Shown piece after piece: positions 33,564 through 38,377 of a DNA stretch of 64,000 nt; positions within the stretch are counted from its first letter, which is position 1, and every line of letters begins with the position of its first letter. This DNA is from an uncultured candidate division Zixibacteria bacterium. GTDB taxonomy: Bacteria; Zixibacteria; MSB-5A5; UBA10806. The DNA lies in NCBI GenBank assembly GCA_963801605.1, contig CAWDFP010000006.1:160001-224000 (forward strand), written 5' to 3'. The notes below the pieces were generated by a model. It was not told where the DNA came from. It worked only from the letters and a program-made list of their open reading frames with translations, and made no database searches. The translations under genes and the position numbers were made by a program.

Positions 33564-34109
33564 ATGAAATTACGGATGCTCCAATGCCTCGGTCTGATTT
33601 TAATTCTGACGACTCTGGCTACTGCGCAGGCGATCCAAACCAAAGTGGCGCCAGATTTCACCCTGCCGGATATCGATGGCAAGAATATAACATTTTCCAA
33701 AAATTATGGTCAGGGGCCGATGTATATTTCGTTCTGGGCTACCTGGTGTAAACCCTGCATGGAAGAACTCAAAATCATTGAAAAGCTCTATGAAAAATAT
33801 CAAGGTCAGGGTTTTCAAGTTTTCGCAATCAATGTAGAAGGTCCCAAGGCCGCAGCCAAAATTAAAAGTTTCGTTAAGACTTACGGACTAACGTTTAAAG
33901 TGCTGCTTGATAATGACGGTGAGGTATTCCGCAGGACGTTCAAAGGCGCCAACATGCCATTTACCATCATGACCGATTCCAAAGGCAGGATCGTATTTTC
34001 GAGGGTGGGCTTCAAGCCAGGCGATGAGGTAGAGATCGAAAAACTGATCTCCGATAATATCCAACCAGCCGCTCCCGATAGCGCCAAAAGCAACGAAGCG
34101 GAGAAATAG
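33564..34109 (+). CDS. TlpA-family thiol-disulfide oxidoreductase
   Basis: AGGAG SD; signal peptide; APDFTL; FWATWCKPC. Confidence 0.9.
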   Translation: MKLRMLQCLGLILILTTLATAQAIQTKVAPDFTLPDIDGKNITFSKNYGQGPMYISFWATWCKPCMEELKIIEKLYEKYQGQGFQVFAINVEGPKAAAKIKSFVKTYGLTFKVLLDNDGEVFRRTFKGANMPFTIMTDSKGRIVFSRVGFKPGDEVEIEKLISDNIQPAAPDSAKSNEAEK

Positions 34110-34110
34110 G

Positions 34111-35629
34111 ATGAAAAAGGAATTTTACCCCGCTGGCGCCATCGCCATTTTTATCGTTCTAACTATAATTTTTATGCTTCCTACGATTTCTCAGGCGCAA
34201 AATGACACCTGGTCAGTCTCAGCGTCGAATTGGATGCAATACTGGTACAATCAGCCTGAAGCCAATTGGCTGCGCAGCAGCCCGATAGATACACTCCCTC
34301 CGGATACTTTGAATTCGGTCAGGGATTCGCTGGATAATAGATTTAGCGTCGATTTCAATTTTGGCAACTTTTACGCCGGGGCATGGCTGCGTACTTACCA
34401 GCCAAATTTCAATGGGGATGCCAACGAGAAAATCACTCAGAGATATTTCGGATGGAAACAGGACGGAATAACTATTCACGCCGGCAATTTCTATGAGACT
34501 TTCGACCGCGGTATGACGCTTAAACGCTTTTCTCGATGACGCCGTGAATTTCGACAATAATCTCGATGGTATTAAAATTTCGGGACTTTATGATCATTTC
34601 GATTTCGATGCGATTTCCGGACGGGCATTCAAATTCCAACAGGGATTTAACGAATTTACGCTTCAAAGAGATTTTACGATCAGAGGCATCCGCGGAGCAA
34701 TTAAGCCGTTTACCGGCTTCAAATATGGCGGCTCTTTTGTGATATTCAAGCAAAATAGCAGTACGCAATTCCGGCAATCTGACAATATCCAGCTTTATTC
34801 CATAAACCACGAAATAAACAAGGGTCCTTTCAATTTTTACGGGGAATACGCCGTTAAAGAGGGAAACACGCCGGAAGAAGAAAAGACCGATGGCGATGGC
34901 ACTTACCTTTCAGGCTCGTTCAGCCATCGGCTCTTTAGCGTCTACGGGGAATACAAGAATATCTTTCGTTTGCTATATCCCGGCCCAACCGGAGCGTTCA
35001 ACACGCCCCCGCCGGTGAGTCACCAGGGACGAAGCCTGTCCTCGCTGGACGGGACACCAGGCGAAAGAGCTTATCAGATCGGCGGTTTGATTTCCCCAAA
35101 CTTCGATCTTAATTTCGATCTGGCATATTCGGAATCGTATTCCCGCGGGCTTGCAAACAGGCTCTATCTATCGGAAAAATACGCGGGCGCAAGATGGGCC
35201 CCGATCGAGAAGGTAGTGGTGAACGGTCACTGGGACCGAATTGACTATACTGAGGATGAGATCGAGACCTATTTTGACGGTTACTATTATGTCAATCCCG
35301 TCCAAACAGTATCTTTCTCGGCTTACACTAAACGTTTCTGGCCAACCGGGAGAAAAAATTATCACGAGGATTATTTGACCCTGGGCTATTCCCGAGGCAA
35401 TATCGTTGAGGTAACAGTTGGGGGCTCGCTCTCGAATAGAGTTTTCAGCCCCGGGGAGAAAAATGATCCCAAGAAACTGGCTTCTATTGAGCTAACCTAT
35501 CATTATCGATCCCATGAGTTATCGGTCTTTTACGGCGGCGAACGCGGGGGCCTGATCTGCTCATCCGGCGTCTGCAGCCTTCGACCGACTTTCAAGGGAA
35601 CTCGGATAATTTTACTATCGCGCTTTTAA
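34111..35629 (+). CDS. DUF6029-like outer-membrane protein (extra A near 34523)
   Basis: GNFYETFDRGMTL then (N)AFLDDAVNFDNNLDG after removing one base; C-terminal RGGLICSSGVC motif. Confidence 0.7.
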
Positions 35630-35716: not shown

Positions 35717-35745
35717 TTGAAAATAAAACGAAGTATTGTTATATT
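35717..35745 (+). promoter_or_regulatory. Sigma70 promoter TTGAAA-17-TATATT with extended TG
   Basis: Motifs read directly, upstream of the GGAGG SD at 35771. Confidence 0.55.
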
Positions 35746-35781
35746 ATCATCAGAAATTTTTTAACCCAATGGAGGTTTTCG

Positions 35782-36837
35782 ATGGATCTTGCTAAAAAGT
35801 TGTTACTACTGATCGCAGTAAGTATCATTTGCCTGACGGGGATAGCCGCGGCTGCCGATAGAATGGTAGTTTGCGAGTATGTCACCAACTGGGGCTGAGG
35901 TTATTGTCCCGCTGCCGATCTGGTCTTAGATCGGTTAATGACAAACGACAGTTCATTTTTGGCTATTATCAGGTATCACTGGTATTATCCGTCCAGTGAC
36001 GATCCTTGGTATATGTATAACATTACCGATAACATGGCCAGAAACAATTACTACAGCAACAATTATTCCCCCCATGCCTGGGCCGATGGCAACGTTGATC
36101 TGACATCCAACCATCCGGGCTGGACTAATTCGATCAACAACGAAAGCAACGTTGACGCTCCGTTGATTATGTCTTTGAGTGGAACGTACAACCGCGATTC
36201 GCTTGTAGGTTATCTGAACGTTAACATCATCGTGGAATCAAATCCCGCTCTTAATAATCTTAAATTGCGGGTGGCTATGACGCAATCAGGGATTCGCCAA
36301 TCATCTCCCAATGGAACCTTGAACCACCACCAGGTATTTCGTGATATGTTCCCAACTACAGGGGGCCTGGGGGTAACTCTTCCCGAAGGCGACACACTAA
36401 ACTACACCGTCCGTTTCACAACTCCATCGCCGCTCATCCCGGATAGCCTGCAGTTAGTGGCTTTTGTCCAATCCGACCAAAACAGGCGGATTCTGCAGGC
36501 CGCCAAGATTAAGGTTCACGACCTGTTAAGGGTTGGAATTGAAGAAGGAGTAGAAGTTCCCCAGAGCTTCTCCCTTTCACAAAATTACCCTAATCCGTTC
36601 AACGCTCAAACCCGCATCGAATTTTCGACCGAAGGCGGAAATACCGCTCTTGAGATATTCGATGTCACGGGAGCCAGGGTTGCCAGCCTGATGCAGGACA
36701 ATCTCAGAGCCGGATCATACTCCGTCATCTGGGATGGCCGCAACCAATCGGGTAATCCGGTTTCATCAGGAACTTACTTCTATCGCCTTAAGGACGATAG
36801 CGGGGTCAAGACAATGAGGATGACACTGCTAAAGTAA
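35782..36837 (+). CDS. Omp28-like thioredoxin-fold secreted selenoprotein (Sec at codon 39, TGA 35896-35898) with NYPNPFN sorting domain
   Basis: SD GGAGG, ATG, signal peptide MDLAKKLLLLIAVSIICLTGIAAAA, then VVCEYVTNWG-U-GYCP, in frame with ORF 35938..36837; SECIS-like hairpin follows. Confidence 0.8.
35914..35935 (+). promoter_or_regulatory. Candidate bacterial SECIS element
   Basis: CCGATCT/AGATCGG stem closing a G-first loop (GGTCTT) 23 nt after the UGA. Confidence 0.7.
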
Positions 36838-36859: not shown

Positions 36860-36893
36860 ACAGGGACGAATTTCGGTTCGTCCCTGTTTTTTT
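36860..36893. terminator. Bidirectional intrinsic terminator
   Basis: ACAGGGACGAA...TTCGTCCCTGT followed by a T-run, between convergent genes. Confidence 0.75.
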
Positions 36894-36943: not shown

Positions 36944-38239
36944 CTATTTTAGCAAAACCATTTTTATACTCTGAGACTGATCGCCCGCAACCAGCTTCGC
37001 ATAATACACTCCGGAAGGGACATTGTTTGCATCCCATATTATCTGATGGGGGCCTGGTTGTTCAAGGTTCTTTGAAAGAATCGCGATTTTCTGGCCTAAG
37101 AGGTTGTAGATGGAAAGCTCAACCTGTTCAGCTTTCGGTAAATTAAGGCTTATAGTCGTTCGGGCATTAAATGGATTAGGGTAATTTTGCGATAGCGAAA
37201 AACGACTGGGGATCCCTGGCTCGTCCTTAATATCCGTCGGAGAGAATCTCAGAATAATCAGGGAATCCCGGTCGGCAACATAAACATAGTTATCAAGAGC
37301 GTAAATCCCGGTAGCAATATATGGCGTATTATAGGCTGCCGCTAATTGAGGTGCGGCTAAGTCGGATATATCAACTACCTGGATACCCTCAACACCAAGA
37401 GCGAGGTAAGCATAATTACCGGAGGCATATACGGCATGCGCCCAGGCGGGAGTAGGGTATGACGCTCTTAAGGTTGGACCTGTTGGATAGGTAATATTAA
37501 TAATTTGCATGCCTCCAACTTCATCGGCAATATAGGCATGGGAGCGATATACGAAAAGATTATTGGCATATCCGGGAGTATCGTAGAATCCAAGCAGCGT
37601 TGGGCTGGCGGAATTTTCGATAGAAGCAATTTCCAGGCCGAAATTGCCATCGGCAATATAGGCAAATGAGCCCAAAACGAATACGCCCAGAGGAGATCCA
37701 TAGGGATCCATTAGAGTTCCGGCAAGCGCGGGATTGGTCCGATTTGATATGTCAATTATTTGCAGTCCGGATGCTACATCAGCCACATAGGCATAGGTCC
37801 CGGTGACAAATACGCCAGTCGCCACGTCGGGAGTATCATAACTTCCCACTAAAATGGGGCTGGCGGGATTGATGATATTCACTATTTGCAGCCCCTGATC
37901 TCCGGTAGCCAGGTAAGCATAGCTGCCGGTGAGATATATCCCATTTCCCTGGCCAACAAAACTAATTTGACCGACAAATTGCGGATGATTAGGCTGGGCA
38001 ATATCAAAAATCGTAAGATCGCTGCTTGAAAGGCAGTAGGCTCGGTTTGCCATGACACGAACATCATTTATATTTGAGCATGCCACCGAACCGATATATT
38101 CTATCTCCTGCCCAAAAGCTGATGGTATAGGTCCAAAGATAACGATTAGAAAAACTAAATTAATAATCCATCGACTAATATATTTTCCGTCGAGTGAAGT
38201 TTCAATTAATGCCGTATCGATGTGAATTATGTTTTTCAT
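36944..38239 (-). CDS. LVIVD-repeat secreted protein with NYPNPFN sorting domain
   Basis: Repeated YAYVAD...GLQIIDIS.P units; C-terminus IKMVLLK. Confidence 0.85.
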   Translation of the reverse strand: MKNIIHIDTALIETSLDGKYISRWIINLVFLIVIFGPIPSAFGQEIEYIGSVACSNINDVRVMANRAYCLSSSDLTIFDIAQPNHPQFVGQISFVGQGNGIYLTGSYAYLATGDQGLQIVNIINPASPILVGSYDTPDVATGVFVTGTYAYVADVASGLQIIDISNRTNPALAGTLMDPYGSPLGVFVLGSFAYIADGNFGLEIASIENSASPTLLGFYDTPGYANNLFVYRSHAYIADEVGGMQIINITYPTGPTLRASYPTPAWAHAVYASGNYAYLALGVEGIQVVDISDLAAPQLAAAYNTPYIATGIYALDNYVYVADRDSLIILRFSPTDIKDEPGIPSRFSLSQNYPNPFNARTTISLNLPKAEQVELSIYNLLGQKIAILSKNLEQPGPHQIIWDANNVPSGVYYAKLVAGDQSQSIKMVLLK

Positions 38240-38377
38240 TATTAAAATGCCTCTCGTCAATTGGCTATATTTATTTCATTAACAAAATAGCAACTGGTCG
38301 GTGTTCCAATATTTATGGCGGGTGGGTAGGAATGGATAAGGGCTGTCAACCCCAAGAAGCTTAGATTCTAATGAGAT

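What the first reader, a model, noticed from the sequence alone, without database searches (positions are those of the whole stretch)
35782..36837. Hidden secreted selenoprotein: Omp28-like thioredoxin fold with UxxC and a SECIS-like hairpin
Seen: promoter, GGAGG SD, ATG 35782 and a signal peptide lead to EYVTNWG-TGA-GYCP, and the frame continues without a shift into the 299-aa ORF ending in an NYPNPFN sorting domain (351 aa total). The TGA sits where the first Cys of the thioredoxin CxxC belongs. A 7-bp stem with a G-first loop starts 23 nt downstream, matching the established bacterial SECIS layout. The other lesions in this window are indels, so this does not fit that error pattern. Inference: an exported redox selenoprotein, possibly surface-sorted, that gene callers truncate.
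Basis: partly seen in the sequence, partly recalled or inferred. Interest (0 to 1): 0.85.

Follow-up and report, generated by a model that had tools for sequence, protein, structure and literature searches.

The report
Exported thioredoxin-like selenoprotein hidden by UGA
An apparent stop codon in this bacterial gene very likely encodes the rare amino acid selenocysteine in the active site of a thioredoxin-like protein predicted to be exported to the cell surface; databases cut the gene short, but it is a new branch of a selenoprotein type already predicted in 2008.

Summary
Confirmed. TGA 35896-35898 lies in frame at the first Cys of a CxxC motif in a 351-aa protein. The genome has selA, selC, a selD with its own TGA, and a frameshifted selB. 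Of 84 homolog copies, 60 have TGA and 24 Cys at this column. A SECIS-rule hairpin follows 49 of 60 TGA copies and 0 of 24 Cys copies, with compensatory changes. The predicted fold matches Porphyromonas HBP35, a T9SS-exported thioredoxin (Z 25.3). SprA, PorU and PorV are present; GldM and GldN were not found. It is not a new kind: NCBIfam NF045500 'Omp28-related selenoprotein' is GOS_C of 2008. This protein scores 43 against a cut-off of 200, so it is a separate branch. New details are two SECIS positions within the family and repeated Sec/Cys swaps, some Cys copies keeping vestigial hairpins. No reads cover the TGA. This scan found the same family on other genomes before.

The parts
35717..35745 (+). 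Sigma70-like promoter candidate with an extended -10 (TTGAAA-17-TG-TATATT)
   Evidence: 10 of 12 matches; consensus match only
35771..35775 (+). Shine-Dalgarno GGAGG, 6 nt before the ATG
35782..36837 (+). Full gene, 351 aa when TGA is read as Sec
   Evidence: full-length 345-354 aa Cys homologs at 44-69% identity
35782..35853 (+). Predicted N-terminal signal peptide (residues 1-24: basic start, hydrophobic core, Ala-rich cleavage site)
   Evidence: sequence by eye; hydropathy window 3.39, and 59 of 60 TGA copies similar; no dedicated predictor run
35854..36156 (+). Thioredoxin-fold domain (about residues 25-125) carrying U39-G-Y-C42-P
   Evidence: AF2 model pLDDT 97.7; thioredoxins align to model residues 1-100
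35896..35898 (+). In-frame TGA, inferred selenocysteine 39, at the first Cys of the CxxC motif
35914..35935 (+). SECIS-type hairpin: 7 Watson-Crick pairs plus G-U, loop GGTCTT at 35922-35927, 23 nt after the TGA
   Evidence: fits the bSECIS constraints quoted in PMC13188914
36157..36525 (+). Omp28 / Ig-like beta-sandwich domain (about residues 126-248)
   Evidence: Pfam PF11551 42.7 bits against cut-off 34.9; PDB 2R2C Z 9.2
36586..36822 (+). T9SS type A-like C-terminal sorting domain (residues 269-347, NYPNPFN)
   Evidence: TIGR04183 37.5 bits against cut-off 23; PF18962 27.1 against 27
36860..36887 (+). Intrinsic terminator-like hairpin with a T tail
33564..34109 (+). Upstream TlpA/ResA-like CxxC thiol-disulfide oxidoreductase gene (neighbour; possible electron donor, inferred)
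34111..35629 (+). Upstream DUF6029 gene, split by a one-base frameshift in this assembly; a conserved neighbour of the family
   Evidence: DUF6029 lies next to a family copy in loci of 20 genomes including this one

Best explanation
The gene has one in-frame TGA at the first position of a thioredoxin CxxC motif, and this TGA is very likely read as selenocysteine, giving a 351-residue protein predicted to be an exported thiol-disulfide oxidoreductase. Shown: the open frame, the TGA/Cys pairing in homologs, a conserved and covarying hairpin 23 nt downstream, selA/selC/selD and a frameshifted selB in the genome, and a C-terminal sorting domain. Inferred, step by step: (1) SelB binds the GGU-looped hairpin and delivers Sec-tRNA to the UGA. 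(2) The signal peptide takes the protein to the periplasm. (3) The C-terminal domain is recognised by the SprA/PorV translocon and probably cut by the PorU sortase, leaving the protein on the surface or releasing it. (4) The U39 selenolate attacks disulfides of envelope or surface proteins and C42 resolves the intermediate, as the C48/C51 pair does in HBP35; the neighbouring TlpA-like protein would be a plausible re-reducing partner. The substrate is not known.
For: Frame and motif. Machinery: selA 454.9 bits over cut-off; selD over cut-off with its own TGA; tRNA-Sec 68.7 bits with anticodon TCA; selB in two frames and over cut-off in 24 of 24 relatives. Homologs: 28 of 41 genomes match. Of 84 copies kept, 60 have TGA and 24 TGC/TGT at the column; TGA copies come from 26 genomes and include a paralog in this genome. 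SECIS: 49 of 60 against 0 of 24. On 44 aligned copies 94.9% of cells pair, 5 of 8 pairs show two-sided changes, 0 of 500 shuffles reach this, and slid registers give 14-37%. Pairing exceeds synonymous-codon shuffles in 40 of 44 copies. selD genes of the lineage carry a similar GGT-looped hairpin. Fold: HBP35 5Y1A, Z 25.3, rmsd 2.4 A over 218 residues, Foldseek E 2e-12. HBP35 has C48-x-Y50-C51-P52, reduces insulin in a Cys-dependent way and is T9SS-exported (PMC2907840 passages; PMC3120885 abstract). Export: SprA, PorU and 8 PorV-family genes over cut-off; PorU matched in 25 of 25 genomes, 24 over cut-off.
Against: There is no direct evidence of Sec incorporation, activity or localisation. No public reads cover the TGA. 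selB is frameshifted in this assembly; this is probably an assembly indel but is not shown. 11 of 60 TGA copies miss my strict SECIS rule. The homologs are kin, so the p-values overstate. selA and selD were found in all 36 genomes tested, so there is no Sec-less control lineage. GldM and GldN were not found in G000 or 24 relatives, and GldN also failed to match an attempted positive control, so the completeness of the T9SS is open. Sequence identity to HBP35 is only 15-16%, and a shared fold does not show a shared substrate.
Confidence: 0.9

Rival explanations
1. It is a real selenoprotein, but it stays in the periplasm and acts as a folding catalyst for T9SS cargo rather than as a surface enzyme.
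For: GldM and GldN were not detected. 9 of 40 TGA copies whose frame closes within the locus lack the NYPNPFN tail; these include longer forms and two short, broken ones. HBP35 complemented an E. coli dsbA mutant (cited in PMC2907840). The genome has over 100 look-alike tails, which implies many cargo proteins to fold.
Against: The tail passes TIGR04183; SprA, PorU and PorV are present; HBP35 itself is surface-attached.
Confidence: 0.25
2. It is a real selenoprotein whose main job is heme or metal capture at the surface, as for HBP35, with the UxxC serving to reduce or release the ligand.
For: HBP35 is the top structural match over the whole two-domain unit; it binds hemin and aids growth under heme limitation.
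Against: Hemin binding in HBP35 maps outside the thioredoxin motif. Identity is 15-16%. No heme-uptake genes were seen among the ORFs next to this gene (only four neighbours were scanned). I did not map ligand residues.
Confidence: 0.15
3. The TGA is a true stop, a nonsense mutation or a sequencing error, and the real product is the 299-aa downstream ORF or nothing.
For: The assembly has errors (frameshifts in selB and DUF6029, a fragmented rpoB). No reads were available. HBP35 makes shorter forms from internal starts, so an internal-start product may also exist.
Against: The same TGA occurs at the same column in 60 copies from 26 genomes; the alternatives at that column are only Cys codons; 59 of 60 TGA copies keep the second Cys; and the hairpin is tied to the TGA state.
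Confidence: 0.02
4. TGA is reassigned genome-wide (to Trp or Gly) in this lineage.
For: None beyond the in-frame TGA itself.
Against: Long genes such as selA, PorU and SprA have no internal stops. Homologs have Cys, not Trp or Gly, at the column. The only TCA-anticodon tRNA found is tRNA-Sec.
Confidence: 0.01

Closest known systems
NCBIfam NF045500 'Omp28-related selenoprotein' = hypothetical protein GOS_C (Zhang and Gladyshev 2008, PMC2398784; mapping given in Table 1 of PMC13188914)
   Same: Thioredoxin-like fold with a UxxC motif and one Sec. It is the best NCBIfam hit for this protein (E 3e-11; residues 21-251 against model 33-274). The model also has a C-terminal part (about 272-376) that matches many tail-like stretches in this phylum.
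   Different: Score 43.3 against a cut-off of 200; 0 of 121 genomes of this phylum pass; the best of 102 aligned relatives reaches only E 3.5e-21. GOS_C was described from marine metagenome reads with no export or T9SS reading in the passages seen. I did not see GOS_C sequences, so the identity of the Sec column is inferred from the motif and the model overlap.
HBP35 (hemin-binding protein 35, PG0616/PGN_0659) of Porphyromonas gingivalis, PDB 5Y1A
   Same: Signal peptide, thioredoxin domain, Ig-like domain and T9SS C-terminal domain; Z 25.3, rmsd 2.4 A over 218 residues; active-site C48-x-Y-C51-P against U39-G-Y-C42-P here.
   Different: HBP35 has Cys, not Sec; identity is 15-16%; its hemin binding and A-LPS anchoring are untested here; the host here seems to be a different phylum, and GldM/GldN were not detected.
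Omp28 family outer membrane lipoprotein (NF033782, Pfam PF11551, PDB 2R2C)
   Same: PF11551 over cut-off; Ig-like domain match; found next to TlpA-like and DUF6029 genes here (the similar cluster in Bacteroidota is recalled, not tested).
   Different: 37.9 bits against a cut-off of 150; the N-terminus looks like a signal peptidase I site rather than a lipobox (by eye); it has a sorting tail and Sec.
Canonical bacterial UGA/SECIS/SelB system (SelA, SelB, SelC, SelD)
   Same: All four genes lie in one cluster at C6:1293256-1299696; the hairpin meets the published spacing, stem and loop-G constraints.
   Different: The family uses two alternative hairpin positions, with the loop after 23 nt or after 34 nt.

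Membership tests
Bacterial UGA-Sec selenoprotein | In-frame TGA aligned to a conserved Cys in homologs | tested here: met
   60 TGA and 24 Cys of 84 copies; Cys at column 39 in all 10 database homologs of alignment A1
Bacterial UGA-Sec selenoprotein | bSECIS: loop 16-37 nt after UGA, G in the first two loop positions, 4-16 bp stem | tested here: met
   loop GGTCTT after 23 nt with 7 WC pairs; covariation; constraints from PMC13188914; bSECISearch itself was not run
Bacterial UGA-Sec selenoprotein | selA, selC and selD in the genome | tested here: met
Bacterial UGA-Sec selenoprotein | Intact selB | tested here: inconclusive
   full-length match split over two frames in G000; over cut-off in 24 of 24 relatives
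Bacterial UGA-Sec selenoprotein | Selenium incorporation shown by experiment | not testable with these tools
   needs 75Se labelling or mass spectrometry
NF045500 Omp28-related selenoprotein (GOS_C) | Score over the curated cut-off of 200 bits | tested here: not met
   43.3 bits; 0 of 121 genomes
NF045500 Omp28-related selenoprotein (GOS_C) | Thioredoxin-like fold with UxxC | tested here: met
NF045500 Omp28-related selenoprotein (GOS_C) | Sec in the same alignment column as GOS_C | not tested
   no GOS_C sequence was obtained
NF033782 Omp28 lipoprotein | Score over the cut-off of 150 bits | tested here: not met
   37.9 bits
HBP35-like T9SS cargo | Trx + Ig two-domain fold | tested here: met
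   Z 25.3, rmsd 2.4 A, 218 aligned; TM-score 0.81
HBP35-like T9SS cargo | Type A C-terminal domain | tested here: met
   TIGR04183 37.5 against 23
HBP35-like T9SS cargo | Translocon and attachment genes (SprA, PorV, PorU) in the genome | tested here: met
HBP35-like T9SS cargo | Motor and ring genes (GldM/PorM, GldN/PorN) in the genome | tested here: inconclusive
   no match; no true positive control matched; GldK and GldL not searched
HBP35-like T9SS cargo | Disulfide reductase activity, hemin binding, surface anchoring | not testable with these tools
   bench assays needed

The most novel reading that the evidence does not exclude
This lineage puts most of its selenium into exported redox proteins and sends an HBP35-like selenoenzyme to the cell surface through a T9SS that has no recognisable GldM/GldN motor and ring. 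Within the family, Sec was coded with two different SECIS positions and was repeatedly converted back to Cys inside Sec-competent genomes, giving tandem Sec/Cys paralog sets. A 2026 review calls that direction rare in bacteria.
Probability: 0.3. Interest if true: 0.6.

Novelty: new variant of a known kind. Interest (0 to 1): 0.36.

Why it matters
It corrects a systematic annotation error: the database forms start after the active site, so the catalytic part and the signal peptide are missing. It links a predicted selenoprotein type of unknown function (GOS_C / NF045500) to a characterised surface thioredoxin (HBP35), which gives a direct assay. It also offers a natural series of close Sec and Cys paralogs, some Cys copies with decaying SECIS hairpins, for studying how bacteria gain and lose selenocysteine. 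The general kind is already catalogued, so the gain is incremental.

Tried and rejected
Read check: the only run found shared 6% of the words and covered nothing near the TGA, so it gave no evidence either way. The genome-contig scan was swamped by the common C-terminal tail; only 4 of 75 loci covered the whole protein, and the three whose motif could be read carry Cys. The PDB sequence search found only FlgD-like tail hits and weak thioredoxin hits. The first AlphaFold run on 11 sequences failed in the thioredoxin domain (pLDDT 58) and was replaced by a 102-sequence run. The first tree used a loose rule that mislabelled several hairpin types and kept the trait columns; it was redone without them (two long rows left out; the script stopped on an error after printing the tree). 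Five rows were dropped as misregistered duplicates or unaligned (L066 x2, L077 x1, L089 x2), and three short or broken rows were left out of the trees. Co-occurrence of TGA copies with Sec machinery did not discriminate, because all 36 genomes tested had selA and selD. GldM and GldN searches were blank but had no working positive control. No ESM Atlas look-up is available for this protein. Literature: 'Omp28' + 'selenocysteine' gave 1 unrelated paper; 'selenoprotein' + 'T9SS' gave 3 papers, 2 listed, unrelated by title and abstract start; 'Zixibacteria' + 'selenocysteine' gave 3 papers, 2 listed, not read. The BSepDB supplement was cut when stored, so its family list could not be seen.

Full report
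Observation. The frame that starts at ATG 35782 runs to TAA 36837 with one internal TGA, at codon 39 (35896-35898). Read as Sec it gives a 351-aa protein with EYVTNWG-U-GYCP after an N-terminal hydrophobic stretch. Standard ORF calling gives only the downstream 299 aa, and that truncated form is what the protein collection holds (P0002). GGAGG precedes the ATG by 6 nt. A promoter-like site at 35717-35745 and a terminator-like hairpin at 36860-36887 frame the gene; these are consensus matches only. After the TGA, 35914-35921 pairs with 35928-35935 around the loop GGTCTT, which begins after 23 nt.

Sec machinery. G000 has one cluster on contig C6: tRNA-Sec with anticodon TCA, selD with its own in-frame TGA, selA, and selB. 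selB is split over two frames. The DUF6029 gene in the window is also frameshifted and rpoB is broken into several ORFs, so an assembly indel is the likely cause; this is inferred. selB passes its cut-off in 24 of 24 relatives. selA and selD matched in 36 of 36 genomes of the class that I tested, so there is no Sec-less control group.

Homologs. 28 of 41 genomes searched hold the N-terminal two-domain unit. I fetched most, not all, of the listed matches. This gave 89 rows, of which 5 were dropped as misregistered duplicates or unaligned. Of the 84 left, 60 have TGA and 24 have TGC or TGT at the first position of the CxxC. TGA copies come from 26 genomes, Cys copies from 14, and 12 genomes have both. 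59 of the 60 TGA copies keep the second Cys. A paralog on contig C7 of this genome has TGA at the same column. All 10 full-length database homologs in alignment A1 have Cys there. This rules out a one-off error or nonsense mutation in practice. No reads cover the codon.

SECIS. A simple rule (loop 16-37 nt downstream, GT at the start of the loop, at least 6 Watson-Crick pairs) fires for 49 of 60 TGA copies, 0 of 24 Cys copies and 0.9% of 5,165 random TGAs of G000 (kin are not independent, so the Fisher p-value overstates). On 44 copies that share this gene's hairpin position, 94.9% of cells pair and 5 of 8 pairs show changes on both sides. 0 of 500 shuffles reach these values, and slid registers pair at 14-37%; the structure was taken from these sequences, which favours it. 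Pairing exceeds synonymous-codon shuffles in 40 of 44 copies, and p = 0.013 for this gene (uniform codon use assumed). The hairpin meets the consensus constraints quoted in PMC13188914 (passages). selD genes of the lineage carry a similar GGT-looped stem.

First, 15 TGA copies, mostly from more distant families, use a different hairpin whose loop starts after 34 nt. Each group shows excess pairing only at its own position (40 of 44 and 11 of 15, against 0 of 44 and 0 of 15 for the other position). Second, Sec and Cys copies are interleaved. In a quick 89-row tree built without the trait columns, starred branches force at least 11 changes of the Cys label. In a careful 29-row subset, chosen after seeing that tree, 5 changes are needed and Cys monophyly is rejected (AU p 1.2e-6). 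6 of 24 Cys copies keep more of the first hairpin than synonymous shuffles give. One of them (G005, L034) keeps all 7 pairs, differs from its Sec sisters at a loop G, and sits inside a 100/99 clade of Sec copies. This points to Sec-to-Cys conversion, which PMC13188914 calls rare in bacteria (passage). The trees are not firmly rooted, so direction is argued only for such nested cases.

Structure and export. With 102 sequences the mature N-terminal 224 residues fold at pLDDT 97.7 (Cys stands in for Sec). The best match is HBP35 of Porphyromonas gingivalis (5Y1A; Z 25.3, rmsd 2.4 A, 218 aligned, 16% identity), then 2AXO (Z 19.7) and the Omp28 domain 2R2C. HBP35 has C48 and C51 with Y50 and P52. 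It reduces insulin in a way that needs both Cys, binds hemin outside that motif (PMC2907840, passages), and is exported by the T9SS and attached to A-LPS after loss of its tail (PMC3120885, abstract). The tail here passes TIGR04183. G000 has SprA, PorU and 8 PorV-family genes over their cut-offs, and PorU matched in 25 of 25 genomes. GldM and GldN models found nothing in G000 or 24 relatives, but no positive control matched either, so that point is open. The gene follows a TlpA-like CxxC gene and a DUF6029 gene; DUF6029 lies beside a family copy in loci of 20 genomes. An RpoB fragment is 54-59% identical to three named Zixibacteria and 49% to a Bacteroidota and a Delongbacteria genome, which suggests, without proving, Zixibacteria.

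Mechanism. Most likely SelB reads the hairpin and inserts Sec at codon 39. The protein then crosses the inner membrane by its signal peptide and is handed by its tail to the SprA/PorV/PorU machinery. It acts as a disulfide reductase or isomerase through U39 and C42. The recoding step is very well supported by comparative data; export route, location and substrate are inferred from the tail, the genome content and HBP35.

Comparison and novelty. The best NCBIfam hit is NF045500 'Omp28-related selenoprotein'. Table 1 of PMC13188914 (section 7, parts 1-2 of 3 read) lists it as hypothetical protein GOS_C with UxxC. PMC2398784 (passages) described GOS_C in 2008 as a Trx-fold UxxC protein with 74 Sec sequences. 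This protein scores 43 against a cut-off of 200, and no genome of 121 in the phylum passes. It therefore works like that family but is not a member by the curated test. Word searches for 'Omp' and 'T9SS' in PMC13188914, PMC13326102 and PMC12013277 were blank, and library searches found no paper linking Omp28 or T9SS to a selenoprotein. The BSepDB supplement was cut when stored, and most subscription journals are not covered. Earlier notes of this scan report the same family on other genomes; I reached NF045500 and HBP35 from my own calls first.

Verdict. It is an unannotated branch of a known selenoprotein type, with useful new detail on SECIS placement and Sec/Cys exchange. Interest 0.36.

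Noticed in passing
G000 C7:107383-108096 (-), locus L050: Second family copy in the same genome with TGA at the same column, preceded by an extra Cys (NWC-U-PSC), the same SECIS type, and a longer C-terminus without the NYPNPFN tail.
   Followed up: partly
L220:177-1394 (G000 C6:1327676-1328893, +): Likely further exported selenoprotein: hydrophobic N-terminus, thioredoxin-like W-U-S-A-C motif, 8-bp hairpin with a GT loop, helical-repeat-like C-terminus. No family scan was run.
   Followed up: partly
L221:246-1478 (G000 C6:2845-4077, +): Likely further exported selenoprotein with an S-U-G-C motif and a 7-bp hairpin; resembles DUF1573 selenoproteins (recalled motif, not scanned). With the two Omp28-like genes, 4 of the 5 plausible candidates among the 18 hits of my scan look exported; the fifth is SelD.
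   Followed up: partly
G000 C6:1297842-1299696 (L002, L005): selB is split by a one-base frameshift; likely an assembly error, since relatives are intact.
   Followed up: partly
window 34111-35629: DUF6029 outer-membrane-like gene split by a frameshift near 34525; a conserved neighbour of the family, directly after a TlpA-like CxxC gene.
   Followed up: partly
G000 C11:72159-77831, C6:1378993-1382247 and relatives G001-G024: SprA, PorU and PorV are present in G000 and PorU in all relatives tested, but GldM and GldN were not detected; possibly a T9SS variant with divergent or missing motor and ring. The genome has over 100 T9SS-like tails.
   Followed up: partly
L066 (G006:C17:72400-73750): A family copy with GGGG-U-PQG: Sec kept, resolving Cys lost, three extra residues before the TGA and the hairpin shifted to match.
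   Followed up: no
L028/L054 (G013), L062 (G017), L067/L039 (G023), L077 (G034), L072 (G025): Tandem arrays of 3-4 family copies, several mixing Sec and Cys versions.
   Followed up: partly
L042 (G016) and L034 (G005): Cys-codon copies that keep a near-complete SECIS stem; in G016 the loop still begins GGT. Most likely vestiges; recoding of a Cys codon was not tested.
   Followed up: partly
window 36944-38260 (-): Convergent LVIVD beta-propeller gene with its own T9SS-type tail; similar genes flank family copies in G006, G012 and the G000 paralog.
   Followed up: no
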